From: Scenedesmus sp. PABB004
Lineage: Eukaryota
NCBI GenBank assembly: GCA_014905635.1
Contig: CM026547.1
Location: forward strand, 3,286,001-3,350,000
DNA length: 64,000 nt
Direction: 5' to 3'
A model generated the notes under the pieces. That model was not told the origin of the DNA. It ran no database searches and was given only the letters and a program-made list of their open reading frames with translations. The position numbers were made by a program, and so were the translations under genes. Below are positions 2,869 to 31,714 of this stretch, in pieces; the stretch's first letter is position 1, and each line of letters opens with the position of its first letter.

Positions 2869-3444
2869 GCGGCCCAGGCCGCAGAGGCTGGCCGACGGGC
2901 CTGCCGGCGGCGGGGGCGGGGTCAGGCGGCGCTGTCAGGCGCAGAGGGCAGCTGCGACCGCGCAGCAGCGGCAGCGCCGCTGCCGTCGCCGCCGCGGCCA
3001 GCCGAGGAGCTGGCCGACGGCCTTCCACGCTGCGGGAGCCGCGCTGCCGGCCGGTGGCGCCCGCAGCGCCTCCATGCTGGCAGCTCCGAGCGCGCAGCAG
3101 CGTCGCTGCCTGGCCGCCGCCGCCGCGCGCGCCCCCGCGCGGTCAGCGCGCGCCCGGAGCTCACCTGAGCCTGAGGCTACAGTGCGCCCACGCGCGGGGT
3201 CACGCGACGAGCGCGGTCGCGCGCCCGCCCGCAGCCGCGGGGCCGCGCCGGCCGCGCCGCGCAGGTGGCAGGGCGCTCCGCGTGCGCCCGTGATCGTGAC
3301 AGGGGGAGGTGCGCAAGCCGCGATTGGCACGCGAGCGGAGCTCACTCGCTTCTGCGCGCCTGGCACACCCGCTGTCGAGCTGCCGGAAGCTTGGCGGGTC
3401 AGCCCGACTGCCGGGCCGCGCGCAGGCCTGGGCGAGCGCGGGGG

Positions 3445-3582
3445 GAGCTCGTGCGGGCTGCCATGAGCTGCGCGCGAGCTTACGGCGCCAGCGGCGGCGG
3501 CGGCGCCCCGGTCTCCGGGCGCTGGTGCCCGTGATGGCGCTGTAAGCTCGCGCGCAACTCATGGCAGCCCGCCACGCAGCTC
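3445..3582. repeat. Inverted repeat / long hairpin
   Basis: 3453-3490 (GCGGGCTGCCATGAGCTGCGCGCGAGCTTACGGCGCCA) is the reverse complement of 3535-3572 with 2 mismatches in 38 bp. Pairing extends with bulges to 3445/3582. Confidence 0.9.
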
Positions 3583-5180: not shown

Positions 5181-5557
5181 TGCACCCTCGCTGCGGGTCG
5201 GGCGCGGCGGCGGCGCTCGCTGCCGCCGGATCGGGGCACGGCGGCCGGGAGCCCAGGGCTGGCGGGTGGCGGGGGCCCAAGGGGGTAGCGGGCGGCGCTG
5301 TGGGCACGGGGCGGCTGGGCGAAGGGCCAGGCGAGGTGCCGGCGCGGCGCTGCGCCCTTGCGCCCCAGGTGTCAGTTTCTGCTGCTGCTGCCGCCACGCC
5401 CGGCGCGCACGGCCGCCCGCGCGCGCCGCGCGTCCGCACACTGGGACGACTCGGCACCCGCAGCACTCCGCCGGGCCGCGAGCGCCGCCCCCAACGACCT
5501 TCTGGTTGCGGCCCTCCCGCAGTCGCGCGCCAGGCCGCGGGCGGCCGCTTGGGCAGC

Positions 5558-7796
5558 ATGGGCTTCAAGGTGGGGGCCCCTGGCTGCCGGGGGCGGGCGC
5601 GGCGCGTGCGCGGGCGCCGCGCGGGGCGGTGGCGGGCGGCGATGTCGGCCGCTGATGGACGTTTGCCCCCCGCAGGTGCTCAACCTGGTGCGGCCCTTCC
5701 TGGGGCTGCTCCCAGACGTGGCGCAGGCGGAGAGGAAGATCCCGTTCAAGGAGAAGGTGCTGTACACGGCCGTGACGCTCTTCGTGTTCCTGGTGTGCTC
5801 CCAGCTGCCGCTCTACGGCATCAAGACCAACTCCGGCGCCGACCCCTTCTACTGGGCGCGCGTGATCATGGCCTCTAACCGCGGCACGTGCATGGAGCTG
5901 GGCATCAGCCCCATCGTGACCTCGGGGCTGGTCATGCAGCTGCTGGCCGGCAGCAAGATCATCGACGTGGACAACTCCGTCAAGGCCGACCGCGACCTGC
6001 TCAACGGCGCGCAGAAGCTGCTCGGCGTGCTCATCACCATCGGCGAGGCCGTCGCCTACGTCGTGAGCGGCATGTACGGCGACGTGCGCGAGCTCGGCGC
6101 CGTCAACGCCATCCTCATCATCCTGCAGCTCTTCTGCGCCGGCATCATCGTCATCTGCCTCGACGAGCTGCTCCAGAAGGGCTACGGCATGGGCTCGGGC
6201 ATCTCCCTCTTCATCGCGACCAACATCTGCGAGCAGATCATTTGGAAGGCGTTCAGCCCGTACACCGTCACCGGTACGCGCGCCCGCGCGCGCCTCGCGT
6301 GCTTGCCCGCGCGCGCCGGCGGCGCGCGGCAGCGCACCTGGCGCGGCAGCGCGCCCGGCGCGGCAACCGGGGGTCCGCCGCGGCGCGCGGGCGCGGCGCG
6401 GCCGCCGGCGCGGGCAGCAGCAGCGGCGCAGCAGCGACGCAGCAGCGGCGCCCGCCGGGGGGCGCCACGTGCAGCGGCACGCGCGGTCGCCGCGCCGCGC
6501 GGCAGCCAGCGAGCAGCGGGACGAGTGCCCGTGCCAGCAGCGGCTGGGCGGCGGCGGCGCGCGCCGTCGCCGTGTCGGTTGCGGCGGTTGGGCGGCGGTT
6601 GGCGCGCCGCCGCGCGCCCACCCGCGCCGCCCGCCGCCTGCGCCGCCGCGCGCGCAGGCGCGCGCGGCGCCGAGTTTGAGGGCGCCGTGATCGCGCTCTT
6701 CCACCTGCTGCTCACGCGCAACGACAAGGTCCGCGCGCTCAAGGAGGCGTTCTACCGCCCCAACCTGCCCAACATCACCAACCTGCTCGCCACGATCCTC
6801 GTCTTCCTCGTGGTCATCTACTTCCAGGGCTTCCGCGTCGACCTGCCCGTGCGCAACAAGCGCTCGCGCGGGCAGCAGGGCACGTACCCGATCAAGCTCT
6901 TCTACACGAGCAACATGCCCATCATCCTCTACTCGGCGCTCGTGTCCAACATGTACTTCATCTCCCAGCTCCTCTACAAGCGCTACGGCGGCAACTTCCT
7001 CGTCCAGCTCCTCGGCCGCTGGCAGGAGAGCGAGTACAGCGGCCAGATGGCGCCCGTGGGCGGGCTCGCGTACTACATCTCGCCGCCGGGGAGCCTCTCC
7101 GAGGTCGCGGCCAACCCGCTGCACGCGATCTTCTACGTCACCTTCATGCTCACCGCCTGCGCGCTCTTCTCCAAGACCTGGATCGAGGTCTCCGGCTCCT
7201 CCGCGAGCGACGTCGCGAAGCAGCTCAAGGAGCAGCAGATGTTCATCCAGGCGCGCAGCCTCGCAGCGCGGCGCCGCGCGGGGCGCGGACGCCGTCGCCG
7301 CCCGCAGCGCCGCCGTGCCGCCGCCGCCGCGCTGACCCCCGCCCCTCTCCCTCCCTCCCTCCCTCTCGCTCCCTCCCTCTCCCTCGCGCGCGCGTGCGCC
7401 GCCGCAGGGCCACCGCGACACGCAGTCGAGCCTCAAGAAGGAGCTCAACCGCTACATCCCGACCGCGGCCGCGTTTGGCGGCATGTGCATCGGCGCGCTC
7501 ACGATCGTCGCCGACTTCATGGGCGCCATCGGCAGCGGCACGGGCATCCTGCTCGCGGTGACCATCATCTACCAGTACTACGAGAGCTACGGTGAGCAGC
7601 AGGCAGCAGCCGGCCGCGGCGGCGCATGGCCGGCCGGCCGCCCGGGCGCGGGCGGGCGGGCGCGGCGCGGCGCAGCGGGGCCGCGCGCCAGCGGCGCCGC
7701 GCGCGCGCTGGGCTCACGCCCCGCCGCGCCCCGCGCGCCGCGCCGCTCCCGCCGCGTGCAGAGAAGGAGAAGTCGCAGATGGGCGCCATCTTCTGA
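5558..7796 (+). CDS. SEC61A: Protein transport protein Sec61 subunit alpha (5 exons)
   Basis: [19 protein letters not shown]...[113 protein letters not shown]. Exons approximately 5558-5569, 5676-6273, 6658-7250, 7408-7591 and 7762-7796. Confidence 0.97.
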
Positions 7797-8121
7797 GCGG
7801 CGCACGAAGCAGCAGCAGCAGCAGCGGCAGCGGCAGCGGCAGCAGCCACTGCAGCAGCAGCGGCAGCCACTGTGCCGGCGGCGCTGGCGCTGGCGCGGCG
7901 CTGCTGTCCGGACGGCGCCGCGCACGCGCGTGCTCCGTGGCGCTCGGATGCCAGGCACGCGGGCGGGCGGCGCGGGCGATCGCAGCATGGCCGGGGGCGG
8001 GGCACGGCGGGCGGGGCGGCTGGCGCGGCGGCAACGAAGCAGGGGCGGGCGCCGGGCGCGCGCGCGCGCGCACGGCAGCGGTCGCTGCCCGCGCGCGGCG
8101 TGGCGGCGCCCGCCTGCAACG

Positions 8122-8151
8122 TTTGCGGGGATTGTGCGCAACATTTTTGAA
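8122..8151 (+). promoter_or_regulatory. Candidate cell-cycle promoter element (CHR-like TTTGAA) upstream of DDX11
   Basis: AT-rich island with TTTGAA at 8146-8151, about 355 bp upstream of the DDX11 ATG. Motif match only. Confidence 0.35.
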
Positions 8152-8505
8152 CGCGCGCGACCGCGTGAGCGCGGCGCGGCGTCAGGCGGGCGGCGGTGCC
8201 GCCGCCTGGTTAGGGTCGCCGCCCCGCTGCCTCCAGCTTGCCATATGCGTGCGCGTCTGCGTGCTAGGTGCCGGCAGGGCGCGGCGAGCGGGCGTGGCAG
8301 CGGGCGGCGCGGGCGGGCGGGGAGGCGGGCGTGACGGCGGGTAACGAACCGACACGAGCGACGGCGCAGTGTGACAGCAGCAGGCCGCAGCGGCGCAGGC
8401 CCATGCCCTGGCGCTGGCCGCGGCGGCAGCAGTCGCCCGTGCTGCCGGCGGCCGCAGCCGAGCAGCGCCGGCAGCGCGCGGCCGCCGTGCGCGCCGGCGT
8501 GCGCC

Positions 8506-11500
8506 ATGGCCGCGCCTGCCGAGCCCAGCGAGGAGGAGCTGACGGCGCAGCTGGCTGGCGCCTTTCCGCACCCGCCGTACGACATTCAGCGCCAGCTCAT
8601 GGCCGCCATCTACGCCGCCGTCCAGGGCGGCCAGATCGGGCTGTTCGAGAGCCCCACGGGTGCGTGTGCTGGCGGAGAGGCAGGGCAGCTGCTCGCGCCG
8701 GTCCCGCGCCACCTGGGGGCGGCGGCGGCGCGGCGCAGCGGGCTGGAGGGCGCGCGCGCGCGGCGCTGCTGCTGCTGCGCGTTTGAATCGCACGGCCGCC
8801 GCAGGCACCGGCAAGACGCTCAGCGTCATCTGCAGCGTGCTCAAGTGGCTCGAGGACGAGCGTGCGGCGCAGGCGGCGGCAGCGGCGGCGGCAGCAGGTG
8901 CGCGCGGGTCGAGGCGCACAGCGCGGGGTGCATGCGCGAGCTGCGCTGTCGGAGCCGCCCCGCCGCCGCCGACGCCCCGCCCCCGCCCCGCCGCGGCAGA
9001 GGAGGACAACGGCCTGCCGGACTGGATGCGCGGCTTCGGCGCGCCCGAGCCGCCGCCGGCCGCGGCGCGCCCGCCGGCGGCGGCGCCGCAGAAGCACGCG
9101 GCGCGCAAGGTGCGGCCGGGCGCCGCGGCAGCAGCGGCAGCGCCGCGGCACGGCCGCCCAGGAGCCGCGCGCGGCGCGCGCGCAGGCCAAGCCGCGCGGC
9201 GCGGCGGTGCTGGACGAGGACGGCACCGACCTCTCCGAGTTCCTCGTCGACGGCGGCGGCAGCGACGGCGGCGGCGGCCCCGGCGCCAAGCGCCCCGCCA
9301 GCGAGACCGGCTACGTCAGCAGCGACAGCGACAACGACGGCGGCGGCGGCGGCGGCGGGGAGGGCGACGGCGGCGGCGACGGCGACGGCGGCGCGGCGGC
9401 GGTCGAGCGCCGCCGGCCGCAGGTCATCTTCTGCAGCCGCACGCACTCGCAGCTCTCGCAGTTTGTGGGCGAGCTGCACCGCACGCGCTTCGCCGACAGC
9501 GTCACGCTCATGGCGGTCGGCTCGCGCAAGGCGCTGTGCGTCAACGACGAGGTTGCCAGGCTGGCGGAGCTGTCGCAGATCAACGAGCGCTGCATGGACC
9601 TGCAGCGCAGCAAGGCCTCGTCGGGGCGGAAGGCCGCCGCGCTCGCGCCCGCGCGCCGCACCCGCGCTGGGGCGCGGCGCCCGGCGGCGCCGCGCAGGCG
9701 GGCGTGGTGGCGTTTGGCGCGCGCGCGCCGCAGCCGCGGCGGCAGCGCGCCAAGAAGGCGGCGGGCTGCCCCTTCCTGGCCGTCGACGGCGCCGCGTGGT
9801 CGGAGTTTGGCGACCTGCTGCTCGCGGCGCCGGTGGACGTCGAGGAGCTGGCGAGCCTGGGGCGCAGGCGCAAGGTGCGGCGGCGCTGCCGGCCCGCGCA
9901 GCGCCCGCCCGGTCGGCCAGGGGGGGGGGGGGGCTGGCGGCCTGAGCGCGACGCGGGCGCCCCGTGGCCTCGCCGCCGCCGCCGCCGCCGCGGCAGGTGT
10001 GCCCCTACTACGGCTCGCGCCGCGCGCTGCCCGGCGCCGACGTGGTGCTCGCGCCGTACAGCTCGGTGCTGTCCCCGGACGCGCGCGCCGCGCTCGGCAT
10101 CGAGCTCGCCGACGCGGTGGTGGTCTTTGACGAGGCGCACAACCTCCTGGACGCCATAAACTCCGCGCACAGCGCCGCCGTGACGGGTGGGCCGCGCGCC
10201 GCGCCCGCGCACGCGGCGCTGCGCGGCTGACGGCGACATGCCTCTCACCCGCCGCCGCCGCTGGCGGCGCTGCGCGCAGCGTGGCAGCTGCTGTCGGTGC
10301 AGCGCAGCCTGGCGGCGTACCACGAGCGCTTCAGGGGCGTGCTCGCGCCCGCCAACGCGCAGCACATCGCGCTGCTGCGCCGCGTCGCGGCCGAGCTGCA
10401 CGCGTGCCTCGCGGCCGCGGCGGCGCAGCAGGCGCCGCAGGCGGCGGCGCAGGCGGCGCCGCAGGAGCAGGGCCCGCTGCCGGCGGCGCCGCCGGGGCGC
10501 GTCGTGTCGGTCAACGACCTGCTGTTTGACCTCGGGCTCGACAGTATCAACATGTTTGAGCTCGCGCGCTGGGTGAAGGACACCAAGCTCGCGTTCAAGG
10601 CGCGCCCAGCGCGCCGCCGCCCGCGCCCCGCGCGGCGCCGCCCGCGCTGCACACGCGCGCCGCGCCGCGGCGAGGGGCGCGCTGACAGCCGCTGGCGGCG
10701 CTGCGTGCCGCCCCGCGTCGCGCAGGTCGCTGGCTACACCGCGGCGGCGGTTGCGCGCGCGGGCGGCAGCCTGGAGCTGCAGCTGCGCGGGGTGCCCGCG
10801 AGCGCGGGCGGCGGCGAGGCGGCGCAGGAGGGGGAGCAGCCGCCGCGGCCGCAGCAGCAGGGGCACGAGCTGGGCGCGCTGTCGGCGCGTGACGGCGTGT
10901 CGGCGATCCACGCCTTCATCGGCTTCCTGCTCAGCCTCACCAGCTGCGACGCAGACGGGCGCGTCATCGTGGAGCCCGCCGCGCCCGCGCCCGAGCCCAG
11001 CGGCGGCGACGCGGGCGGCGCGCGCGGCGGGCGGCTGCGCTACGTGCTGCTCAACGCGGCGCGCCACTTTGGCCGGCTGCTGTCGAGCGCGCGCAGCGTG
11101 CTGCTCGTGTCCGGCACGCTCGCGCCGGTCGCCGGCCTCGCGGCGCAGCTCTTCCCGGGCCAGCCGCCGGAGCGGCTGCGGCACTTTGAGTGCGGGCACG
11201 TCGTGCCCGCGGCGCACCTGCTGGCGGTCGCGGTCGGCCGCGGGCCGGCGGGCGCGCGCTGCAGCTCACGCACGGCGCGCGGCGCGACGCCGGCGTCGCG
11301 GCGGAGCTGGGCCAGCTGCTCCTCAACCTCGCCGGCGTCGTGCCCGAGGGCCTCGTCGTGTTTGCGCCGAGCTTTGCCTTCCTGCAGTGGCTCACAGACG
11401 CGTGGGCCGCCAGCAAGCTGCTCGCCCGCCTGCAGCAGCGCAAGGCGGTCTTCAGGTGCGGCCCGGCGCGGCGCCGCGCGCCGGCGAGGCCGCCCGCCGC

Positions 11501-11619
11501 CCGCCGCCCGCACCCACGCCGCGCCCGCGCCCGCGCCCGCGCCGCGCGCAGGGAGCCGCGCAGCGCGACTGAGGTTGAGGCCGTGCTCGCGCAGTATGCC
11601 GCCGCCATCGCCGGCGGCA

Positions 11620-11667
<48 letters not shown>

Positions 11668-12061
11668 GCGGCGGCGGCGGCGACAGCCCCGCCGCCGCGC
11701 AGGGAGCCGCGTCCAACGGCGCGCTCATGCTGTGCGTGGTGGGCGGCAAGCTGTCGGAGGGCATCAACTTCGGGGACGGCCTCGGCAGGCGCGGCGCGCG
11801 GCGCGCATGCCAGCAGCGCGGCGGCGGCGCCCGCGCGCCGCGCGGCATGCTCACGCCCGCCGTGCGCGCGCGCCCGGCGCAGGTGCGTGGTGATGCTGGG
11901 CATGCCCTTCCCCAACCCCGCCGACCCGGAGCTGCGCGAGCGCATGGCCTACCTCGACGCCTGCGCCGCGCCGGGCGGCCCGCCGGTGCCGGCGCCCCCG
12001 CGGCGGCAGCGGCGGCGGCGGCGGCCGTCCAGCCGGAGCAGCCGGGCCAGGAGCAGCTGCA

Positions 12062-12094
<33 letters not shown>

Positions 12095-12604
12095 GCAGCC
12101 GCTGGAGCTGGCGCCCCCCCGCACGGCGTTCCAGCTGGTCAACCGCCCCGCGCGGCCGCCGCCACCCCGCCGCCGGAGCCGGCCAAGCTGGAGCCCCCGC
12201 AGCCGGCCCCGCCGGAGCCGGCGCCGGAGCTGCTGGCGCCGCCGGCGCCGCCGCGCGCGCCCGGCGCGCCGGCGGACGGCCCGGCGGCGCGGGCGCTGAG
12301 CGGGCGGGCGTACTACGAGGAGCTGTGCTTCAAGGCCGTGAACCAGTGCGTCGGCCGCGTCGTGCGCCACGCCGGCGACTACGCGGCCATCGTGCTCGTC
12401 GACGCGCGCTGGGTCGCGTGCGCGCCCGACTGGGCGCGCCGCCGCGGCGCGGCGCGGCCGCCGCCCGCCGCGCGGCTGCCGGGGTGGGTGCAGGAGAGCT
12501 TTGTGCCCGGCGGCGGCGAGTTCGGGGCCGCGTTCCGCGCCCTCGCCGACTTTTTCCGCGAGCGCCGCGCCGCGGCGGCGGCGGCGGTGCCGGCGGGCAA
12601 GTGA
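8506..12604 (+). CDS. DDX11: ATP-dependent Fe-S DNA helicase DDX11/Chl1, spliced, with apparent frameshifts
   Basis: Q motif and motif [10 protein letters not shown]...[30 protein letters not shown]; four Fe-S cysteines (SRKALC, INERC, GCPF, CPYY); [82 protein letters not shown]. Confidence 0.93.
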
Positions 12605-13245
12605 GCGTTGTTGAGCGGGCGATCGGTCGGCCGACGGCGTGCGCGTTGAGGAGGCCCGCCCTGTGTGGGTCGAGGTAAGCAGGCGCGGCGGCAGCAGCAG
12701 TCGGGGGCGCGCGGCGGCGGCGGCGGCGCGTGAGACAGGACCAGCAGGCGGCGGCGCACACGGCCAGGGCGAGCAGGCGCGGCGGGGCCCGGCGGCGGTC
12801 CACCGGCGCGCCGGCGGGCTGTAGCGCGCGCGGCGCGAGCTGCCCCCGCCCCGCCCGCCCCCGCCAGCATCACATGCACGCACCCGTGCCGCACTTGTGC
12901 TTCTCCTGCGGGCGCCTGCACGCACAGAAGCCCCGGCCCTGCGTGGCCAAGCCACACCCGCGCCCACAGCGCCCAGGACGCCCTGCTCGCCCCGCCAGAC
13001 GACGTTTGGGGGTGAGTTTGAGGTCACGCAGCTCTGGCGAGCGGCGCCGCGCCTCCGGGCGGGCGGGCGAGCCAGCAGCAGCGCCGCCGCGCGCGGCCCG
13101 CCGCCTCCGCGCACGCGCTATCGGGCCGCGCGAGCGGCCCAGGCCGTGACCCACGCCCGGCTCACACTTCCGCGCTCGCTGACCTGTGCCGCCGCGCCGC
13201 CGCGAACGCGCGCAGACCGCGCTTGACCGCCCGGGCGCGGGCGCC

Positions 13246-16200
13246 ATGGACCGGCTGGGTGGCCTGCGGGCCATCCGCACCGGCCGCGTCGCCGCGGCGG
13301 AGCTGCCCGGCTCGGCGGCGGGCACGCCCACGCACGGCGGCGGCGGCGTGAGCCACCTCGAGAGCGAGGAGCCGACGTCGGCGCGCTCCAGCGCCGTGTG
13401 AGCGGCGCGCCGCGGCGCCGCGAAGCCCGCGCCGCCGCCCCTTGCCCGACGCTCACGCGCTGCCGCTCCGCCGCTCCGCGCCGCGCCGCGCAGCAACTTG
13501 AGCGCCGCGCACCGCCGCACGCCCAAGCACGCGTCTGACGGCGGCGGCAGCCCCGCCGGCGCCGGCGAGCAGCAGTGGCAGCAGGCGCTGGCGCAGAAGC
13601 GGCAGCAGGCGCCGTCGTCGCAGCAGGCGAGCGAGGGCGCGTCTCCCATCGGCGCGTTCCACGGCCCCGCCGGCGCCGCGCCGCCGGCGCCGCCGGGGGG
13701 CGTGTCGGTCGTGCTGACCGCAGAGGAGCTGAAGGCGCTGGTCGCGAAGCAGCTCGGCAAGGCGCCGACGCCGCAGCAGGAGGTGCGCGCCTCGCCGGCC
13801 AGCACGCCACGCCGCCGCCTGGGCGCCCGCGCCCGCCGCCCACGCGCGCCCGCCGCCGCCGCGCGCCCGCCGCCGCGCGCCCGCGCCGCCGCGCCGCGCC
13901 CCGCCCCGCCAGGCGCCGGCGTCGCCCGTGTACGCGCTCAACGCGCGCGACCCGCCGCGGGCGCCGGCGGTCATCCGCAAGCAGTTGAACTGGGGCGGCC
14001 TGGCCCTGTTTGTGGCGTTTGTCGCCTCGGCCGCCTACTACTTTGCAGTCCGCGCCACGCGCACGCTCAACATAGGCTACACCGCCTACGGCGCGGTCGT
14101 GCTCGGCGTGGAGGTGCTGTCCAGCACCGCGACGCTGAGCTACGCGTTCCTGCTGGTGCGCTACACGCGCCCGCGCGCGCGCAAGGGCCTGCCCGCGGCC
14201 GACCCCGACGCGCCGCTCGAGCTCGGCGCCGACGGCGACGGCGGGCTGGCGTTTGTGGTGCACGTGCTCATCTGCTGCTACGGCGAGCCCGACGAGGTCG
14301 TCGGCCACACGCTCGAGAAGACGCTGCAGGCGGCGCTGCCGGCGTCTACGCGCCGCACCGTGTACCTCTGCGGTGCGCGCGGGAGCTGGTCGCCCGGGCG
14401 TGGGAGCCGGGGGCAGGCGGGCGGCAGCGGGCGGGGCAGGGGGCGGGGCGCGGCGCGCGGCTCTAGCACGCAAGGGGCGACCGCGCGCGCGTGCTGTGCC
14501 GCGCCCCGGCGCGCAGACGACAAGAACGAGCAGAGCAAGGCCGACATCGTGACGCGCCTCTCGGAGCGCTACGCCGACTCACGCACCTCGCTGCGCTACG
14601 TGAGCGGCCGCGTGCGCGTGGCCGACCCCAAGGGCGTCAGCGCGCGCGAGATCACGGGTGAGCTGCCGCGCGATCGTCGCCGGGGGGTGGGGGCTGCAGG
14701 AGCGGCCGCTGCGCGGGAGCAGCCTGCGCGGCGCGCGGGCGCCCGACCAACCGCCGCCGCGGCCGGCGTCGCCGCGCAGACCCCGTGACGGGCGCGGCGC
14801 GCGTGAAGGAGGTCAACGGGAAGTCAAACAACCTCAACAACTGCCTCATGCGCGTCATCTACCCACACATGACCGACCCCAAGCGCCAGGCCATCCCCGA
14901 CAACGAGGCGCGCGCTGCAGCTGGGTCGCGTGCGGGCGCCGCGCGCCGGCCGACCCCGGGCGCGCGCGGGGGGCTGAGGCGCCGCCCCGGGCGCCCCGCG
15001 CCGCGGCCTCCGCAGGTCCTGGTGGTGCTCGACGCCGACCAGGCGCCCGAGGCGAGCTTCTTCTGCCGCGTGCTCGAGGTCATGGCCGACGGGCGCACGG
15101 CGCTCGTGCTCACGCCGCAGGCGTTTGACGACGTGGACGCCAAGCGAGACATCTTCAACTGCCTCAACCTCTCCTTCTGGGAGTACATGCTCCCCGGTAT
15201 GCACAGCGCGGCGCGGCGCGCCCAGCCGGGCACCCGCGCGTGCCGGCGCGCCGCCCCCGCGCCGCGGCGGCGGCGGCCCCAGAGCAAGGCGGAGCCGCAC
15301 ACCCCCGCCGCCGCCGCCGCACCAGGCACCGACGCGGCCGACTACATCGCCTGCACCGGCACCAACTTTGCGCTCCGCTGCCACGCGCTGTTCGACTGCG
15401 GGTGGTTCCCGACCTGGAGCGTCACGGGTGCGCCCGGCGCGCAGGGGCCCGTGCCGCGGCGCCCGCGGCGGCCGCGGCGCTCACGCATCATCAAACATTT
15501 CTCACACGCCGCGCAGAGGACTACACGCTGGGCATGCAGCTCAAGGCCAAGGGCTACAGGGCCCGCTACCTCAACGAGTACCTCGTCTTCGGCACCAGCC
15601 CGGAGACCGTGCGCAAGATCTTCCAGGCGCGCCGCGCGCGCTGCTCAGGGGCTCAGGGCGCAGGGCGCAGGGCTCAGGGCGCCAGGGCTCAGGGCTCAGC
15701 GGCGAGGGCCGCGCCGCCGTCTCACCGCCGCCCGGCGCCGTCGCCCGCCACCCCACGCCCCGCGCGCAGCAACGGAGCCGCTGGTGCAAGGGCCAGATGC
15801 AGGTGCGCGGCGGCCGCCCCGCAGGCAGGCCCGGCAGCGTCGTCGGTCGCGCCCCTCCCGCTCAGCCAACGCGCCCCGCTCAGCCAACGCGCCCCGCCCC
15901 GCCCCGCCCCGCCCGCCCCGCCCCGCCCCGCCCCGCCCGCCGCCCCGCCCCGCCCCGCCCCGCCCCGCCCCGCCCCGCCCCGCCCCGCCCCGCCCGCCCC
16001 GCCCCGCCCCGCCCCGCCCCGCGCCCGCCCCGCCCCGCCCCGCCCCGCCCCGCCCCGCCCCCCCCCCCGCCCCGCCCCGCCCCCCGCCCCGCCCCGCCCG
16101 CCCGCCCCGCCCCGCCCCCGCCCCGCCCCGCCCCGCCCCGCCCCGCCCCGCCCCGCCCCGCCCCGCCCCGCGCAGGTCCTCTTCTCGCGCGAGTGCCCGC

Positions 16201-19200
16201 TGCTGCAGACGGGGCTGACCTGGGACATGCAGCTGCTCTACACGAGCGTGACGTGGAGCTACATCACCAACACCTTTGCCGTGCCCTGCAGCGTGCTCGT
16301 GCCCTTCGTTGCGCTCGTGTTTGGGGTCTACCCCCTCGTGCTCAACCGCGACTTTGCGCTCGCGGCGACCCTCTACTACGCGACCTCCACCGCCGTCACC
16401 ATGGCGCGCGCAGCACGCGCGCAGCGCGGCAGGGGCTGGGCCGGACGCCCGGGCGGGCCGGCCTGGGGCGCGCGCGCGCGCGTAGGCTCCGTCCGACCCC
16501 GCCGCCGCGCCCGGCCGCGCGCAGTACTGCCGCTCCTGGGCGCACCTGAAGCCGGTGTGGTTCTGCATTGTGTCGTGCCACCTGCTCTGGTTCACGTTCA
16601 CCAAGGCCACGGTCAACGTGCTTGTCAGCAACCTCACCGGCAAGGTACGTGCGCGCGCCGCGGCGGTGGCGGCCTGGCGGCGCCCCGCGCGGCGCCCCCG
16701 CGGAGGTCAGAGCTCGAACGTTGCCGACCACGGCAACACCTCCAGCTCACGCCCACCGCGCCCGACGCGCGCCCTGCATGCAGATGCTGGGCTTCAAGGT
16801 CACCGGCGCGCGCGACGACGGCGCCGCCAAGCGCGGCTGGCTCGACCGCCTCAAGCCGACCTACCTCGTGCGTCCAAGCGCGCCGCGCGCCGCGCGCCAG
16901 CCACCGGCTGGTTGCCGCCGCCGCGCCCGGCCGGCCGCCCGCACACCCGCGCCCCCGCGCCCCCGCGCCCCGGCGCGCCCCTTGCGTGCACAGGGCGACA
17001 TGAAGGGCACGCTCGACGCGTGGGTGCTGGCGGCGTCGTTTGCGCTCAGCGCAGCCACCGCCGCGGTGGGCGTGTTCCAGATGATCGACAGGCCCTACAC
17101 CGCGCAGGGCGACGTGCGCTGGTTCCTCCTGCTCTCCGTCTGCTGGGCGGTGCACAACGCGATGCCGCCCGCGCTCTTCATCAGGCGCGTGGCGCGGCGC
17201 GGCCGTGACGTGACGTGCCGCGCGCGCGCCGGGGCGGCCGCGTCGCCCCGGCTGGCCCGGGCTCGACAGGCCAGCCGGCTGACCTGCCCGCGGGCGCCCG
17301 CAGGTACATCTACATGCGCGTCGAGCCCGTGCCCGAGGGCAGCGCCGACGAGCCCAAGCCCACGCAGAAGAGCCTGCAAAAGTTCGAGGGCTTCTGCACC
17401 TTCTGCTTCACGCTCAGCTTTGCGATGGCCCTCGGCGGCATGGTCTGCACCTGGCTCGTGCCAGGTGAGCGGCGCGCGCGTGCGCACGCTGCGTGCGCTG
17501 CGCACGCTGCGCACGCTGCGCACGCTGCGCACGCTGCGCACGCTGCACGCGCCGCGCCCGCTGCGCCCGCTGCGCACGCTGCACGCGCCGCGCCCGCCCC
17601 GCGCCCACGCCGCCGCCCGCGCCCGGCCCGACCGCCAGACGACTACAACATGGGCCAGGTGCTCAACGTCTCGCTGCAGTTCTTCGAGGCGCAGCGCTCC
17701 GGCAAGCTGCCGCGCATCAGCAACACGCCCTGGCGCGGCTCGAGCGCGGTGTGGGACAGCGTCCTGCTGCCGAGCGGGCGCAACCACAGCCTCATGGGCG
17801 GCTGGTACGACGACGGCGGCATGCTCAAGCTCTCCCTGCCCACCGCTTTCACCGTCAGCCTGCTCAGCTGGGCCTTCCTGGAGTTCAAGGCCGGCTACGC
17901 CGCGAGCGGCAACGCCGAGCTCGGCGCCAACACCATCCGCTGGGGCGCCGACTACCTCATGAAGGTCGCCGTCACAAACGCCTCCGCGACGGCCGCCGGC
18001 GGCGGCAGCAGCACGACGACCGCGGCGGCCGCGGCCGCGGCCGCGGCCGGCCGCGCGGCGCAGCCCATCTTCGTCGCCCAGGCGCGGCGACGCGCGGCGC
18101 GCGCCGCCGCCGGCCGGCCCGGCGCCGCCGGCCCGACGCGCGGCGCCGCACGCCGCGCCGCGCCCGACGCTGCCGCGCCGCGCGCGCCGGCCTGCAGGTC
18201 GGCGACATCGCGCGCGACCGGGCCTACTGGGGCATGCCGGAGCGCTCGACCGTCCCCCGCCCCGCGGCCTTCCTCTCCGCGGCGCGCCCCGGCACCGAGC
18301 CGCCCGCGATGGCGGCCGCCGCGCTCGCGGCCGCGGCGGCGGCGCTGCAGGGCGAGAGCCTGACGGTCAGCCAGGCCTACCTGGGCAAGGCGGTCGCGCT
18401 GTACGGCCTCGCGCAGCGCTGGCGCGGGCCGTACGCGCGCTACATCGACTCGGGGCGGCTCTACCCCTCGGTCTCCCTGTTTGACGACCTCGCCTACGCC
18501 GCCGCGTGGCTGCACCGCGCGACCGGGGACGACGCCTACCTCGCCGACGCGGCCGCCTGGTACGCCAAGGCGCTCAACGAGAAGCACGTCAGGCGCGGCG
18601 CGCGGCGCGGCGGCGCCCCGCGGCGGCACGGCGGCGGCCGCTGTGCGCGGCACTCGGTGGCCGCCGTGCGCGGCCGGCGAGCGGGCGGCGGCCCCCAGCT
18701 GACGCCCGGCTGCGGCGCGCGCGCGCGCAGCCCCAACCCCGTGCGCCTGGACTACGAGAACGTGCTGCCCGCGCTCGACCTGCTGCTCGCGACCGCGACG
18801 CGCGGCGGCGCGCCGTACGCGGGCAACGTCGCGGGCTTTGTGTCGGAGTGGATGCGCCGCGGCGCGGGGCGCGGCGCGGGTGACGTCGCCTACACGCCCA
18901 AGGGCCTCGCGCTCGCGGCGCCCGACGGCACGCTGCAGCACACCGCCAACGCCGCGTTCCTCACGCTGCTCGCGGCCAAGTCGCTGCTCGGGGGGCACTA
19001 CATGCAGTACGCCTGCTGGGCGCGGGGGCAGATCGGGTACATGCTCGGCGACGCCGGCCGCTCCTACGTCACCGGTGCGCGCCGCCGCGCGGCGACCACC
19101 GCGCCGCGACCACCGCGCCCGCCCGCCCGCCCGCCCGCCCGCCCGCCCGCCTGCCCCCAACCTACCGCCCGCGCGCCGTGCCCGCCGCCCGCGCCGCGCC

Positions 19201-19694
19201 GCGCCAGGGTACGGTGCGGTGCAGCCGCGCAAGACGCCGCACAAGGCGGCGTCGTGCCCGCCCCCGGACGTGGCCGACTGCACGTGGGAGAGCGCCTACT
19301 ACACGACCGACCCCAACTACCACACGCTGCGCGGCGGCCTCGTGGGCGGACCCGACGCGGCCGACGCGTGGGTGGACGACCGCGACATGGGCAGCGTCGC
19401 CAACGGCGTCTCGCTGCTGAACAGCGCCGGCTTCAGCGCCGCCGTCGCCGCGCTTGTGGACGGCGACGTCAACATGGTCAGTCGCCGCCGCGCGGGCCTG
19501 CTGCGGCGCGCGCGCGCGAGCGCGTGCCGCGGCGGCCGCCGACCCGCGCGCGCGTGCGCTGTGCGTGCTGTGCGCGCCGCGCCGCGCAGGCCAAGTGCCA
19601 GCAGGGCAACGGCTTCATCCAGACCGTCATGCTCAAGGCCCAGGGCGTGCCCGACGCCGCGGGGCAGCGCTGGTGGGAGGGCCTCGCCAGCTGA
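13246..19694 (+). CDS. GT2 cellulose-synthase-like (BcsA/CesA-type) glycosyltransferase fused to a C-terminal GH9 domain (about 19 exons)
   Basis: Two N-terminal TM helices, then ICCYGEP, YLC|DD, NGKSNNLN, VLDADQ (15031), LTPQAF, CTGTN, VT|EDY, QRSRW (15770), TM helices and FKVT. Then GH9 SLQFFEAQRSGKLP, PWRGSS, GGWYD, IRWGADYLMK, QVGD, YWGMPE, DDLAYAAAWLHRATGD, YTPKGL, QIGYMLGD..RSYVTG|YG, AASC, GGLVGGPD. The two halves join in frame across a phase-1 GT-AG intron (17465-17638). Confidence 0.9.
15891..16170. repeat. (CCCCG)n intronic satellite, G-quadruplex-prone on the minus strand
   Basis: About 280 bp of near-pure GCCCC units ending at the acceptor AG (16174-16175), preceded by two copies of CCGCTCAGCCAACGCGCC. 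Confidence 0.9.
17481..17590. repeat. 9-bp tandem repeat (CTGCGCACG)n in the GT2/GH9 junction intron
   Basis: Directly visible tandem units with degenerate copies at the 3' end. Confidence 0.85.
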
Positions 19695-20044
19695 GCGGAG
19701 CGGCGGCGCAGGAGTTTGGGCGGGGGCGGACTTCCAGGGGGGAGGGCGTGGTTGAGCGCGCGCGCTGCACTGCCTAGGCAGGTGCCACGTTGCGGGACTG
19801 GCGGGCTGACGAGGCGGTGGGGGCGCGAGTTGCATGAGTTGCATGGCATCAGCCGCCCTGTGGGGCGCGCCAGAGTTGGGTTGGGGGAGTCGGTCATTCG
19901 CACGCTCGCGCGCCCCCGCTGGCCAGCACCCTGGCCCGATGGCCGCGTCCGTGGGTCAACGCGCGTGCAGGCGCATGCGCTCGTCCGGGTTCCGCTGCGG
20001 GTAACAAAGACCAAAATTGTCAGCGGGTCGCCCTCCCGCGTGTG

Positions 20045-24193: not shown

Positions 24194-27100
24194 ATGTCGG
24201 GGCGGGGGAACAAGTACAAGTCGATGGGCGTCTCGTACCGGGAGGGCCAGGACGACGGCGGCGGCGGGCGCGGGCGGGGGCGCGCCGCGCCAACCGCTAC
24301 CGCAAGACGCTCAACGGCAACTACATGCGCCAGGGCGGCGGCGGCGGCGGCGGCGACGACGACCCCACGAGCCGCCAGGTGCGCGCGTGGAAGGCTTCCG
24401 CGCGGGAGGCTTGCGCGCGGCAGGCTTGCGCGCGGCGCGGCCGCGGTGCTCGCGGCGGCGGCAGCGGCAGCGACTCGCCGACGCGCCGGGCCCGCCCGCT
24501 CACCCCGCCCGCCCGCCCGCCCGCCCGCCGGCGCCAGCTGATCGAGCAAAAGGCGGCGGACGTGCTCGAGGCGCAGCTCGGCTGGCCGCTCTTCACCGAG
24601 GGCGACGACCGCCTGGGCTGGCTGCTCAACTTCACGACGGTGCGGCGCGGCGCAGTGGCGCGGGGCCCGCGCGCCCGCCCGCCCGCACGCCCCGCGCCGC
24701 GGGGCGGCGCTGCCGGCGCGGGCGCGGACGCGTGGCCGCCCACGCCGCGCCCGCCGCCGCCGCCGCCGCGCCCGCCGCCGCCGCCGCCGCCTCGGCGCCG
24801 GCCGCAGACGTCGTTTGAGGACAAGGACACCGGCCAGACCATGAGCGCGGTCGACTGCTACTTCCAGTGCCAGGCGCGGCGCCCCGCGCGCTCACGCAGC
24901 GCTCACGCAGCGCTCACGCAGCGCGCACGCGGCGCGCGCGCCGCACGCAGCGCGCACGCGGCGCGCGCGCCGCACGCAGCGCGCCGCACGCAGCGCGCGG
25001 CGCCTGACGCGCGTGTGGGGCGCCGCGCCGCGCAGGACGGGTCGATGTTCAAGGCGCGCGTGCCGTACGCGCCGTACTTTTACCTCCAGGTCAAGGTGCG
25101 CGGCGCACACACAGCGCAGAGCCCCAACAGAGCCAACAGAGCCGCAGCGGCGCGGCGCGGCCCGCGCCGACGGCTCGCGCCCGCGCCGCGGGCAGCGGGG
25201 CGCGGCTGCAGGCCAACGGGTGCGCGCCGCGCCGCGCATCGCCGCGCCGCGCCGCGCCGCAGGACGACGCGGAGCGCGACGTCGAGGTGTGGCTGCGGCG
25301 CAAGTTTGAGGCACGCATCCGCGACGTGGAGCTGGTGCTGCGGGAGGACCTCGACCTGGTGCGCGCCGCGCGCGGGGCGGGGCGGGCGTGGGGCGGGCGC
25401 GGGGCGCGGGCGCGTGCGCCCCGCCGCCCCGCGCTGACGGTCGCGGCGCCGCCGGCCCCGCGCGCTGCGCCGCGCGCTGCGCGCAGAAGAACCACCTGTC
25501 CGGCCTGAAGCGCCGCCTGCTCAAGGTGTCCTTCCACAACGTGCAGCAGCTCATGGACGTGCGGCGCGAGGTCGCGCCGGTCGTGGCCGCCAACGCGCGG
25601 CGCGGCGCGATGGCTGACGCCGTCGCCGCGCTCGCGGCGGCGGCCGCGACGGCGGCGGCCGCGCCACGGTGCGCCCGCGCGCCCCCCGCGCGCCGCGCAC
25701 CGCACCTGCCACCGCGCCCGCGCCCGCGCGCCCGCGCCGCGCCGGCCGCTCGCTCAGCCCGCGCGCCGCCGCGCCGCGCTGCGCTGCGCCGTTGGTTGCG
25801 TGCCCCCCCCCCCCCCCCCCAGGACGTGCTGGAGTGCATCGTGGGCATGCGCGAGTATGACGTGCCCTACCACGTGCGCTTCGCCATCGACACAGGTGAC
25901 GCACGGGGTCAGGCCAGGCGGCCGCCCCACGCCCGCGCCCGCGCCGCGGCCGGCGGCGCCCGCCCGACGCGCCCGCCCACGCGTGCGCCGCCGCCGCCGC
26001 CGCGTCCGCCGCCGCGCAGACACGCGCGCGGGGCACTGGTACACCGTGCGCGCGCAGGACGGCGTGACGAGCCTCACGCACCGCCCCGACCTGCTGCAGC
26101 GCGCGGAGCCCGTCATCTGCGCGTTTGACATCGAGACCACCAAGCTGCCGCTGCGCTTCCCAAACGCCGCGTACGACCAGGTGCGCGCCCGCACCCGCCG
26201 CCGCCTCGCGCCGCGGCCGCGCGCGCCGGCCGCCGCGGCCGAGCGACGGCCCTCAAGCAGGCAAGCCAGCGAGCGCTGTCGCGCGCAACCCGCGCTGTCG
26301 CTAAACCCTTGTCGCCCGGCGGGCATGGTCTGGTGCAGGTGTTCATGATCTCCTACATGGTCGACCGCCGGGGCTACCTCATGGTCAACCGCGCGGTCGT
26401 GGGCGCAGACGTGGCCGACTTTGAGTACAGGCGCGCAGCGCCGCAGCGCCGGGGCGGGGACCGGGCGCGGGCGCGCGCGCGCGCGGGCGCTCCAGGCGCG
26501 CGCCTGGAGCCGCCGCCGCGCCGCCGCGCCGCGCGCGCGGGGCGAGGGCTCGACGCCGCCGCCGCCGCCGCCGCGGCGCGCAGCCCCAAGCCCGAGTTTG
26601 AGGGCCCCTTCACGGTCATCAACGAGCCCGACGAGCCCAGCCTGCTGCGCACGTGGTTCGCGCACATGCGCGAGGTGCGCCGCGCCGCGCCGCGCCCGTG
26701 CGCCGGCGCCGCGCCGCCGCTCGCGCACGCCCGCCTGTCCCTGCCACCGCCCCTCCTCCTCCTCCTCCAACCCCTCCCGTCTCACCGCCCCTGCTCACCA
26801 CCCCTCGCTCCCCCCTCCCCCTAAACCCTTAAACCCTGCAACCCTGCAACCCTGCAACCCCGCACAGGTCAAGCCAGGCATCATGGTGACCTACAACGGC
26901 GACTTCTTCGACTTTCCCTTCATCGAGGCCCGCGCCGCGGCGCACGGCCTCGACATGGCCGCCGAGCTGGGGTTCAAGATCAGCGCCGCCGGCGGCGAGT
27001 GCCTCTCGCGCGCGTGCGTGCACATGGACTGCCTGCACTGGGTCAACCGAGACAGCTACCTCCCGCAGGGCCAGCGCGGCCTCAAGGCGCGCGCGCGCGC

Positions 27101-29235: not shown

Positions 29236-29267
<32 letters not shown>

Positions 29268-31683: not shown

Positions 31684-31714
<31 letters not shown>

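What the first reader, a model, noticed from the sequence alone, without database searches (positions are those of the whole stretch)
13246..19694. Single-chain cellulose-synthase-like GT2 plus GH9 fusion (synthase with a built-in KORRIGAN-like module)
Seen: a compact bacterial BcsA-style synthase with all processive motifs (DD, DAD, TED, QRSRW, plus KSNNLN, TPQxF and FKVT). It lacks the plant RING, P-CR and CSR inserts and has no PilZ domain. It continues in frame into a full GH9 domain, with no stop or new signal peptide between them. I count one more TM helix after the catalytic domain than BcsA has (FCTFCFTLSFAMALGGMVCTWL), which would put GH9 outside the cell; the sequons NVS, NHS and NAS agree. 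Established: cellulose synthesis uses a partner glucanase (plant GH9 KORRIGAN, bacterial GH8 BcsZ), and tunicate CesA is a GT2-GH6 fusion. I recall GT2-GH9 fusions being noted in the Coccomyxa genome, so the architecture may not be new, but I know of no biochemical characterisation. Inference: a candidate wall beta-glucan synthase of a non-rosette type.
Basis: partly seen in the sequence, partly recalled or inferred. Interest (0 to 1): 0.85.

Follow-up and report, generated by a model that had tools for sequence, protein, structure and literature searches.

The report
Algal glucan synthase fused to pseudo-glucanase
This green-algal gene joins a bacterial-type cellulose-synthase-like enzyme, through one extra membrane helix, to an outward-facing family-9 glucanase domain that has lost its catalytic residues; the fusion itself has been reported in green algae since 2012.

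Summary
Window 13246-19694 (+) carries one multi-exon gene, colinear over its whole length with a 1178-aa Tetradesmus obliquus protein that Pfam reads as GT2 plus GH9. The GT2 motifs are intact (DD, DAD, TED, QRSRW, FKVT). There is no PilZ domain and no plant-type insert. A ninth hydrophobic helix ends six residues before GH9. The junction intron (17465-17638, 174 nt) keeps the frame open whether it is spliced or retained.

The fusion is real. Thirty-eight database proteins share the architecture. Seven of 80 metagenome loci carry both domains in one uninterrupted ORF. The closest locus encodes the helix and GH9 in one exon.

The architecture is not new. The Coccomyxa genome paper (2012) reported four such fusions.

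In this gene and its clade the GH9 catalytic base (Asp58 of T. fusca E4) and catalytic acid (Glu424) are replaced. The fold residues stay conserved, and the domain is as conserved as the GT2 core. So it is probably a non-hydrolytic glucan-binding module rather than a KORRIGAN-like cellulase, as in the tunicate CesA-GH6 fusion.

No RNA data, structure model or biochemistry could be obtained. This is a new member of a known kind, of moderate interest.

The parts
13246..13397 (+). Tentative exon 1 with the start codon
   Evidence: Only two ATGs lie between 12600 and 13930, at 12874 and 13246. The in-frame TGA at 13399-13401 sits inside a GTGAGC donor. The intron 13398-13493 scores best of 201 frame-compatible candidates, using a matrix built from this gene's other introns. 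There is no RNA support.
13494..13782 (+). Tentative exon 2, a low-complexity cytosolic N-terminal extension
   Evidence: The frame is open from 13402 to the GTGCGC donor at 13783. Similarity to the N-terminal extensions of P0003 and P0009 is weak. The 5' boundary is tentative.
13913..14372 (+). Exon 3: TM1, TM2 and the start of the GT-A domain, up to the first D of the DD motif
   Evidence: tblastn against P0001; acceptor at 13912; donor at 14373; hydropathy.
14517..14657 (+). Exon 4 (GT2)
   Evidence: The donor at 14658 is the least certain boundary, because P0001 has an odd duplication there.
14780..14907 (+). Exon 5 (GT2, KSNNLN motif)
   Evidence: GC donor at 14908.
15016..15196 (+). Exon 6 (GT2: DAD and TPQxF motifs)
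15326..15427 (+). Exon 7 (GT2)
15517..15626 (+). Exon 8 (GT2, TED motif)
   Evidence: Pfam PF13632 fragment; GC donor at 15627.
15770..15802 (+). Exon 9, an 11-codon exon with QRSRW
   Evidence: 100% identical to P0001 residues 383-395; boundaries.
16176..16403 (+). Exon 10: the TM helices after QxxRW (BcsA TM5/TM6 equivalents)
   Evidence: 87% identity to P0001; hydropathy; hhalign against BcsA-like proteins. The intron before it holds (CGCCC)x56.
16525..16644 (+). Exon 11 (amphipathic or TM segment before the gating loop)
16784..16867 (+). Exon 12 (FKVT gating-loop motif)
16994..17184 (+). Exon 13 (TM7 and TM8 equivalents)
   Evidence: The hhalign match to BcsA-like proteins ends here.
17304..17464 (+). 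Exon 14: a cytosolic loop, then the extra ninth TM helix at 17392-17460
   Evidence: Hydropathy 1.84. All 23 fused proteins that could be scored have such a segment ending 0-8 residues before GH9.
17465..17638 (+). Junction intron between TM9 and GH9
   Evidence: Runs GTGAGC...CCAG, 174 nt, with no stop. It is filled by a 9-mer repeated 14 times. P0001 has exactly the spliced form. Locus L001 has an intron at the same place and L003 has none.
17639..18081 (+). Exon 15: the GH9 N-terminal part. Asp55-equivalent Asp is at 17809-17811 and Asp58-equivalent Gly at 17818-17820
   Evidence: Pfam GH9 4.4e-24. PDB GH9 alignments show DDGG where GH9 enzymes have DAGD.
18198..18592 (+). Exon 16 (GH9)
   Evidence: The invariant His of the DH motif is Arg here.
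18731..19074 (+). Exon 17 (GH9)
19208..19476 (+). Exon 18: the GH9 C-terminal part, with Glu424-equivalent Gly at 19405-19407
   Evidence: Alignment to 1ks8 at 4.8e-16 shows NGVS where that enzyme has NEVA.
19590..19694 (+). Exon 19: a conserved 34-residue C-terminal tail and the stop codon
   Evidence: 87% identity to the P0001 C-terminus. The tail is 75-85% identical in the four nearest relatives.

Best explanation
This is one nuclear gene of about 19 exons in a very GC-rich chlorophycean alga. It encodes a membrane protein of roughly 1300 aa.

The N-terminal two thirds is a processive family-2 glycosyltransferase of the bacterial BcsA type. It has two TM helices, a cytosolic GT-A domain with intact D, DxD, TED and QxxRW motifs, then channel helices and an FxVT gating loop. 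It has no PilZ domain and no plant CesA inserts. It most likely polymerises UDP-glucose into a beta-1,4-glucan and extrudes the chain through its own channel (inferred from homology).

After the helix equivalent to BcsA TM8, which ends in the cytosol, come a 30-residue loop and an additional ninth TM helix. These carry the chain out of the cell, so the C-terminal GH9 (alpha/alpha)6 domain sits outside the membrane, six residues from the bilayer and next to the channel exit (inferred from topology).

That GH9 domain keeps its fold residues but has lost the catalytic base and the catalytic acid, along with several cleft residues. It therefore most likely does not cut glucan. Instead it probably binds or guides the nascent chain, or anchors the synthase to the wall. 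That makes it a pseudo-glucanase module, analogous to the catalytically altered GH6 domain of tunicate CesA (inferred).
For: Gene and fusion. The region is colinear with P0001 residues 17-1177 and forms one open spliced frame. Of 40 homologues, 21 carry both GH9 and GT2 Pfam domains. They include Tetradesmus, Monoraphidium, Raphidocelis, Haematococcus, Chlamydomonas sp. UWO241, Trebouxia and two ORFs that their source labels as complete transcriptome ORFs. Bryopsis also has the fusion. All 38 fused proteins scanned have PF00759, 31 of the 38 have GT2 families, and none has PilZ. Seven of 80 metagenome loci hold both domains in one uninterrupted ORF. HSPs cross the TM9/GH9 boundary without a break in 7 of 18 loci examined, including the closest locus, L003.

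Synthase. All GT2 motifs are present. The best PDB matches are R. sphaeroides and E. coli BcsA. All 12 GT2-type PDB hits of the family profile are cellulose synthases or CslF6. The best NCBIfam match is the UDP-forming cellulose synthase model at 5.7e-35, against 4.8e-12 for PgaC.

Topology. hhalign against BcsA-like proteins gives probability 100 and E 1.4e-63. It aligns from TM1 to the end of TM8 and stops before the extra helix. Hydropathy and the loop's 5 Lys/Arg in 30 residues agree. All 23 scorable fused proteins have a helix ending 0-8 residues before GH9.

Pseudo-GH9. The window has Gly at the positions aligned to E4 Asp58 and Glu424. The roles of these residues come from passages of PMC4071793 and PMC9099982. 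Among 96 unfused GH9 regions, 85 have the Asp and 86 have the Glu. Among 32 fused regions the figures are 9 and 5. Of 99 columns that are at least 85% conserved in 79 canonical GH9 rows, 78 are kept in the window clade. The 21 changed columns include the catalytic and neighbouring positions, mostly fixed to the same new residue across the clade, although the acid position itself varies. GH9 identity to relatives equals or exceeds that of the GT2 core: 75 against 79% with P0001 and 71 against 59% with P0003.
Against: No transcript, protein, structure or activity data exist for this gene, and the 5' end is unresolved. The product is assigned by homology only, and the NCBIfam score of 120 bits is far below the equivalog cut-off of 699.

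Loss of hydrolysis is inferred from alignment. The clade has gained a conserved Asp next to the retained Asp55 equivalent (DDGG), and this might act as an alternative base. Some fused relatives, such as Bryopsis P0046 and P0051 and also P0043, P0047 and P0063, keep the full catalytic triad, so a hydrolytic role exists elsewhere in the wider family.

The placement of GH9 outside the cell rests on helix counting and homology, not on a model or an experiment. The mapping to E4 numbering rests on alignment ranges, not on a printed alignment to 1js4.
Confidence: 0.6

Rival explanations
1. The GH9 module is still an endoglucanase using substitute residues, so this is a true built-in counterpart of KORRIGAN or BcsZ that trims or releases the nascent chain.
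For: The fold and 78 of 99 conserved columns are retained. The Asp55 equivalent is kept, and a new Asp conserved across the clade sits beside it. Sister fusions with a canonical triad exist, so hydrolysis was probably the ancestral role.
Against: The acid position holds Gly, Thr, Ile, Ser or Arg across the nine clade members, so no replacement acid is conserved there. The 100%-conserved His of the DH motif is Arg or Lys, and five further near-invariant cleft-region positions are changed or deleted. None of the 26 rows in the tree group containing the window keeps the Glu.
Confidence: 0.12
2. The synthase makes a polymer other than cellulose, for example a mixed-linkage glucan, a mannan-type chain or another beta-glycan, and the GH9-like module has adapted to that polymer.
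For: Product specificity in GT2 cannot be read from sequence. The NCBIfam score is far below the cellulose synthase cut-off. CslF6, a mixed-linkage glucan synthase, is also a hit at 9.4e-16. The cleft residues of the GH9 module are remodelled.
Against: Cellulose synthases are the best matches by 20 or more orders of magnitude in both PDB and NCBIfam. No chitin or hyaluronan synthase structure scored at E<=0.01. GH9 is a beta-1,4-glucan-directed family. The Coccomyxa paper linked the fusions to a cellulase-sensitive, Calcofluor-positive wall (passage of PMC3446292).
Confidence: 0.2
3. Two adjacent genes, a synthase and a glucanase, merely look joined. Alternatively the GH9 part is a decaying pseudogene remnant.
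For: No RNA evidence exists for this locus. An in-frame ATG lies four codons into the GH9 exon.
Against: There is no stop between the domains whether the intron is spliced or not. A GH9 starting at that ATG would have no signal peptide or anchor. The same join occurs in 38 proteins and in uninterrupted ORFs. The GH9 part is as conserved as the GT2 core and has an intact frame across five exons. GT2 and GH9 trees give matching groupings.
Confidence: 0.03

Closest known systems
Chlorophyte cellulose-synthase-like/GH9 fusion proteins, first noted in Coccomyxa subellipsoidea C-169 (Blanc et al. 2012, PMC3446292; passages read)
   Same: A GT2 cellulose-synthase-like domain is attached to a GH9 domain in one protein, and the synthase is not orthologous to land-plant CesA. 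Fused proteins from the same family turn up in Chlorophyceae, Trebouxiophyceae and Ulvophyceae.
   Different: That paper treats the GH9 part as a cellulase domain. The passages read say nothing about catalytic residues or an extra TM helix. No Coccomyxa sequence was in my sets, so its clade was not checked.
Bacterial cellulose synthase BcsA (R. sphaeroides 4HG6/4P00, E. coli 7LBY)
   Same: The GT-A domain, all catalytic motifs, the gating-loop motif and the helix order up to TM8 are shared.
   Different: There is no PilZ domain and no BcsB partner is evident. A ninth TM helix and an extracellular GH9 domain replace the cytosolic C-terminus. The protein scores only 120 bits against the 699-bit cut-off of the NCBIfam equivalog.
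KORRIGAN and other plant class A GH9 glucanases (review PMC9099982, passages)
   Same: A GH9 domain is held at the outer membrane face by a preceding TM helix with cytosolic sequence before it, and it is physically associated with a cellulose synthase.
   Different: Here the two are joined covalently rather than being a separate subunit. The catalytic base and acid are missing. The closest named non-algal GH9s looked up were from animals, and relation to plant GH9A was not tested.
Tunicate CesA, a GT2-GH6 fusion (PMC7464555, passages)
   Same: It is a cellulose synthase with a C-terminal glycoside-hydrolase-like domain whose catalytic residue is not conserved. It is the nearest functional parallel.
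   Different: The hydrolase family is different (GH6, not GH9) and the origin is independent. Blanc et al. state that the algal synthase domain resembles the tunicate one, but this was not tested here.
BcsZ (GH8), the periplasmic glucanase of bacterial cellulose operons (recalled)
   Same: A glucanase is associated with cellulose synthesis on the exit side of the membrane.
   Different: It is a separate soluble protein of a different GH family, and it is catalytically active.

Membership tests
Processive GT2 beta-glucan synthases of the BcsA/CesA superfamily | GT-A domain with D, DxD, TED and QxxRW motifs | tested here: met
   The window exons carry DD, DAD, TED and QRSRW at the positions aligned to P0001 and BcsA.
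Processive GT2 beta-glucan synthases of the BcsA/CesA superfamily | TM channel helices after QxxRW and an FxVTxK gating loop | tested here: met
   hhalign aligns through TM8. The motif reads FKVT, with the basic residue one position later than in the bacterial consensus.
Processive GT2 beta-glucan synthases of the BcsA/CesA superfamily | Makes a beta-1,4-glucan from UDP-glucose | not testable with these tools
   Only homology is available: all 12 GT2-type PDB hits are cellulose synthases or CslF6.
Bacterial BcsA proper (NCBIfam TIGR03030 / NF008558) | Score above the equivalog cut-off, and a C-terminal PilZ domain | tested here: not met
   The score is 120.5 bits against a cut-off of 699.1. 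PF07238 is absent from P0001 and from all 38 fused proteins.
Plant rosette-type CesA | N-terminal zinc finger and the P-CR and CSR inserts | tested here: not met
   Pfam finds no zinc-finger family in P0001. The match to plant CesA structures is much weaker than to BcsA: 3.4e-7 against 5.9e-18. The GT2 core aligns to short bacterial proteins without large inserts.
Chlorophyte GT2-GH9 fusion family | GT2 at the N-terminus and GH9 at the C-terminus in one polypeptide, related to other algal fusions | tested here: met
   The window groups with fused proteins in both domain trees.
Catalytically active GH9 endoglucanases | GH9 fold (PF00759 over its full length) | tested here: met
   The window frames cover profile positions 3-442 of 444. 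The family profile scores 3.4e-153 against 1ks8.
Catalytically active GH9 endoglucanases | Catalytic base Asp (Asp58 of T. fusca E4) | tested here: not met
   Gly at 17818-17820. The Asp is present in 85 of 96 unfused GH9 regions and in 9 of 32 fused ones.
Catalytically active GH9 endoglucanases | Catalytic acid Glu (Glu424 of E4) | tested here: not met
   Gly at 19405-19407. The Glu is present in 86 of 96 unfused regions, 5 of 32 fused ones and 0 of 9 window-clade members.
KORRIGAN / plant GH9A | Separate type II membrane protein with an active GH9 domain, in the plant GH9A clade | tested here: not met
   Here the GH9 is fused, not separate, and its catalytic residues are absent. Only the arrangement of a TM helix followed by an outward GH9 is shared. 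Clade membership was not tested because no plant sequences were in the trees.
Tunicate CesA (GT2-GH6) | C-terminal domain belongs to GH6 | tested here: not met
   The C-terminal domain is GH9. The resemblance is in design only.

The most novel reading that the evidence does not exclude
A conserved, catalytically dead GH9 barrel is held by a dedicated ninth TM helix directly over the exit of a BcsA-type channel. It works as a built-in extracellular chain-handling module, guiding, spacing or anchoring the nascent beta-1,4-glucan.

On this reading catalysis was lost early in the chlorophycean and trebouxiophycean branch of an older, originally hydrolytic GT2-GH9 fusion, the type still seen in Bryopsis. 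This would be convergent with the tunicate CesA-GH6 fusion. It would mean that what cellulose synthases need from their partner glucanases is, at least in these lineages, glucan binding rather than cutting.
Probability: 0.45. Interest if true: 0.65.

Novelty: new member of a known kind. Interest (0 to 1): 0.42.

Why it matters
Why cellulose synthesis needs a glucanase (KORRIGAN in plants, BcsZ in bacteria) is still unsettled. Green algae provide a natural experiment, because the glucanase-like domain is welded to the synthase. One branch keeps the catalytic residues and another, which includes this gene, has lost them while conserving the domain.

Comparing the two types in one assay system could separate a binding or guiding role from a cutting role. 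The protein is also a compact single-chain candidate for wall beta-glucan synthesis in chlorophytes, which lack rosette CesA. The architecture itself is already published and widely present in databases, so this gene adds a member rather than a new kind.

Tried and rejected
RNA evidence: no RNA holder was listed for 13000-19900, so read laying could not be used.

Whole genome: none is held for this window.

Structure: the AlphaFold job on P0001 with alignment A2 was interrupted, and new jobs were not accepted. No model and no fold search were made.

Literature: six full-text searches aimed at the fusion found no paper naming a GT2-GH9 fusion. Two further searches turned up only Blanc et al. 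2012. I found no paper on catalytic-residue loss in algal GH9, but no search was aimed solely at that, and supplements were not read. Li, Irwin and Wilson 2007 (PMC1907127) is not held, so the role of Asp58 is cited second-hand from PMC4071793.

ESM Atlas: the synthase part returned only generic GT2 clusters.

Poly(A) signal: the TGTAA scan gave 5 matches against 2.9 expected, none near the 3' end.

N-terminal extension: similarity to relatives is too weak to fix the 5' exons.

Sequons: they are a weak argument for an outside location, because one conserved sequon also lies in the cytosolic GT2 domain.

Reading catalytic positions in the metagenome loci by tblastn worked for only 23 of 80 loci, and for all three positions in only 7.

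Apatococcus P0200 (1197 aa) turned out to be GH9 without the GT2 domain.

An antisense gene was considered and rejected: minus-strand ORFs over the locus have no Pfam match.
Full report
**Context.** The window is about 80% G+C throughout. It carries ordinary nuclear eukaryotic genes around the finding:
- an OPT transporter and an FMN-dependent dehydrogenase on the minus strand
- Sec61alpha/SecY (5289-8331), a DEAD_2/Helicase_C_2 helicase (8787-12601) and DNA polymerase epsilon (from 26349) on the plus strand

Minus-strand ORFs across the locus have no Pfam match.

**Gene model.** Stop-to-stop frames between 13.9 and 19.7 kb hold recognisable exon pieces. A search with the first large exon found two proteins. 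One is the Tetradesmus obliquus protein P0001 (1178 aa), which carries GT2 and GH9 Pfam domains. tblastn of P0001 against the window gives a colinear series of matches from residue 17 to 1177, all on the plus strand and nowhere else in the window.

For each gap I chose the donor/acceptor pair that kept the frame and best matched P0001. The result is 17 exons from 13895 to 19694, 3513 nt, with one open frame and one terminal stop. Further properties of the model:
- Sixteen introns of 89-373 nt separate these exons, and six of them start with GC rather than GT.
- Coding GC3 is 0.97.
- Simple tandem repeats fall almost entirely inside the predicted introns. This is independent support for the model.

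**5' end.** A further intron at 13783-13912 links an upstream exon in another frame. The only nearby ATGs are at 12874 and 13246. The best-scoring bridging intron is 13398-13493.

**The junction.** The exon carrying the last hydrophobic helix ends at 17464. The intron 17465-17638 is 174 nt long, has GT...AG ends and contains no stop, so the frame stays open whether it is spliced or retained. It consists largely of a 9-mer repeated 14 times. P0001 has exactly the spliced join.

Evidence from other sequences:
- Of 40 homologues found with P0001, 21 carry both GH9 and GT2 Pfam domains. They come from Chlorophyceae and a Trebouxia, and include two ORFs that their source labels as complete ORFs of transcriptome contigs.
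- Two further fused proteins are from Bryopsis.
- Locally, 39 of 188 sequences (187 fetched plus the window model) have GT2 followed by GH9.
- Pfam finds GH9 in 38 of 38 and GT2 in 31 of 38 of the fused proteins. The other seven are N-terminally cut. None has PilZ.
- Among 80 related metagenome loci, seven carry both domains in one uninterrupted ORF.
- In 7 of 18 loci examined, a single match crosses the helix/GH9 boundary. One is L003, the closest relative. L001 has an intron at the same place as the window. The other ten gave no match across the boundary.

The fusion is therefore a real and old feature of a gene family.

**The synthase part.** The window exons carry the DD, KSNNLN, DAD, TPQxF, TED, QRSRW and FKVT motifs.

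| Comparison | Result |
|---|---|
| P0002 (close Scenedesmus homologue, synthase part only) vs PDB | R. sphaeroides BcsA 5.9e-18, E. coli BcsA 6.4e-11, poplar CesA8 3.4e-7, CslF6 1.9e-5 |
| Profile of 19 fused proteins vs PDB | BcsA 5.6e-40 and 3.7e-37, CslF6 9.4e-16, plant CesAs 1.4e-12 to 1.8e-7; no other GT2 type at E<=0.01 |
| NCBIfam best model | UDP-forming cellulose synthase, 5.7e-35 (PgaC 4.8e-12); 120 bits against a 699-bit cut-off |

The protein is thus a distant relative of bacterial cellulose synthases and not a member of that equivalog. The beta-1,4-glucan product is an inference.

**Topology.** Hydropathy gives two helices before the GT domain and, after the FKVT loop, three hydrophobic segments. 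The last runs from 17392 to 17460 and ends six residues before GH9.

A profile-profile comparison of the fused family with 13 bacterial BcsA-like proteins gives probability 100 and E 1.4e-63. It aligns from the first helix to the end of the eighth and stops there. In BcsA that helix ends in the cytoplasm, where the PilZ domain follows (recalled from the 4HG6 structure). So the 30-residue loop, with 5 Lys/Arg, should be cytosolic, and the extra helix should take GH9 outside.

All 23 fused proteins that could be scored have a hydrophobic segment ending 0-8 residues before GH9. The other 16 of 39 lacked a QxxRW match or the GH9 start. The three GH9 sequons are kept in 5, 8 and 6 of 10 relatives. 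This is weak evidence, because a conserved sequon also sits in the cytosolic domain.

**The GH9 part.** The fold is complete: Pfam positions 3-442 of 444 are covered, and the family profile scores 3.4e-153 against termite endoglucanase 1ks8. The active site is not complete.
- Aligned to earthworm and termite enzymes, the window has DDGG where GH9 enzymes have DAGD, and NGVS where they have NEVA.
- By the alignment ranges reported for 1js4, these positions are Asp55 (kept), Asp58 (Gly) and Glu424 (Gly) of T. fusca E4. This mapping is my inference from the ranges.
- Passages of PMC4071793 name these three as the E4 catalytic centre, with Asp58 as the base. PMC9099982 names an Asp and a Glu as required in plant GH9.

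I aligned 128 near-complete GH9 regions; 25 of 153 were dropped for incomplete coverage.

| Position | 96 unfused regions | 32 fused regions |
|---|---|---|
| Asp55 | 87 | 20 |
| Asp58 | 85 | 9 |
| Glu424 | 86 | 5 |

Of 99 columns that are at least 85% conserved in 79 canonical GH9 rows, the nine-member window clade keeps 78. The 21 changed columns include:
- the base and the acid
- the invariant His of the DH motif (now Arg or Lys)
- the first His of HH (now Pro)
- a conserved Arg (now Gln)
- two Trp (one deleted, one now Tyr)
- the Asp-Tyr-Asn following the acid

Most of these are fixed to the same new residue across the clade. The acid position itself varies, holding Gly, Thr, Ile, Ser or Arg.

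The domain is as conserved as the GT2 core: 75 against 79% identity to P0001 and 71 against 59% to P0003. This pattern indicates a maintained, repurposed domain and not a decaying one.

**Evolutionary pattern.** In a FastTree of the 128 GH9 regions the window lies in a well-supported 17-row clade, 16 of them fused. This clade lies within a weakly supported 26-row group, 24 of them fused. No member of the group has the Glu. Three members of the 17-row clade still have the Asp58 equivalent.

A separate well-supported clade of nine rows, six of them fused and including Bryopsis, mostly keeps the full triad. A GT2 tree of 39 rows (35 of 74 hits were dropped for coverage) gives matching groupings, with the triad-bearing fusions outside a supported 31-row clade. 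Rooting rests on one long bacterial branch and is weak. In the metagenome loci the base position could be read in 23 of 80, and it was Gly in 21 and Asp in 2.

The data fit one old fusion with an active GH9, followed by loss of the acid and then the base in the lineage leading to this gene. They do not prove that order.

**What is known.** Blanc et al. 2012 (PMC3446292, passages read) report nine GH9 proteins in Coccomyxa C-169.

The tunicate CesA-GH6 domain also lacks its catalytic Asp (PMC7464555, passages). That makes it the closest functional parallel.

Six full-text searches for the fusion under various names and two broader ones found no other paper on it, and none on its biochemistry. 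Subscription journals and supplements were not covered.

**Verdict.** It is wrong in treating the module as a working KORRIGAN-like glucanase.

The best reading is a single-chain beta-glucan synthase, probably a cellulose synthase, with a built-in non-hydrolytic GH9-like glucan-handling domain. It is a new member of a known kind. The loss of the catalytic residues is the one point I did not find in print.

Missing evidence: transcripts, a structure model and all biochemistry.

Noticed in passing
window 13783-19589 (introns of the gene): Six of 17 homology-supported introns use GC-AG rather than GT-AG, with donors at 14908, 15627, 16404, 17185, 18082 and 18593. Introns are 78-95% G+C, while the coding sequence is 71% G+C with GC3 of 0.97.
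   Followed up: partly
window 15890-16171 and 17472-17597: The introns are filled with simple tandem repeats: (CGCCC)x56 in the 373-nt intron, and a 9-mer x14 in the junction intron. The latter has a period that is a multiple of three and leaves the frame open if retained.
   Followed up: partly
window 13398-13403: The in-frame TGA that ends the ORF starting at ATG 13246 lies inside a consensus GTGAGC donor. The first exon probably ends at 13397.
   Followed up: partly
P0001 (public Tetradesmus obliquus model), about residues 209-222 and 471-490: There are two short internal duplications, one a repeated decapeptide. They are absent from the window gene and from the Scenedesmus protein P0002, so they look like splice-site errors in the public annotation.
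   Followed up: no
P0043, P0046, P0047, P0051, P0063; loci L009, L012: A second type of GT2-GH9 fusion keeps the full GH9 catalytic triad. It includes two Bryopsis proteins and intron-free environmental ORFs at about 50% G+C. It would be the natural active comparator.
   Followed up: partly
window 1-12601 and 26349-33254: The neighbours are housekeeping genes: an OPT transporter, an FMN-dependent dehydrogenase, Sec61alpha, a DEAD_2-type helicase and DNA polymerase epsilon. No other wall-related gene was detected. No Pfam match was found among ORFs of 230 aa or more in 19.8-26.3 kb.
   Followed up: no
P0028 (Scenedesmus sp. PABB004, 1157 aa): This public model joins a related GT2 domain to a PF02636 domain instead of GH9. 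It may be a merged gene model.
   Followed up: no
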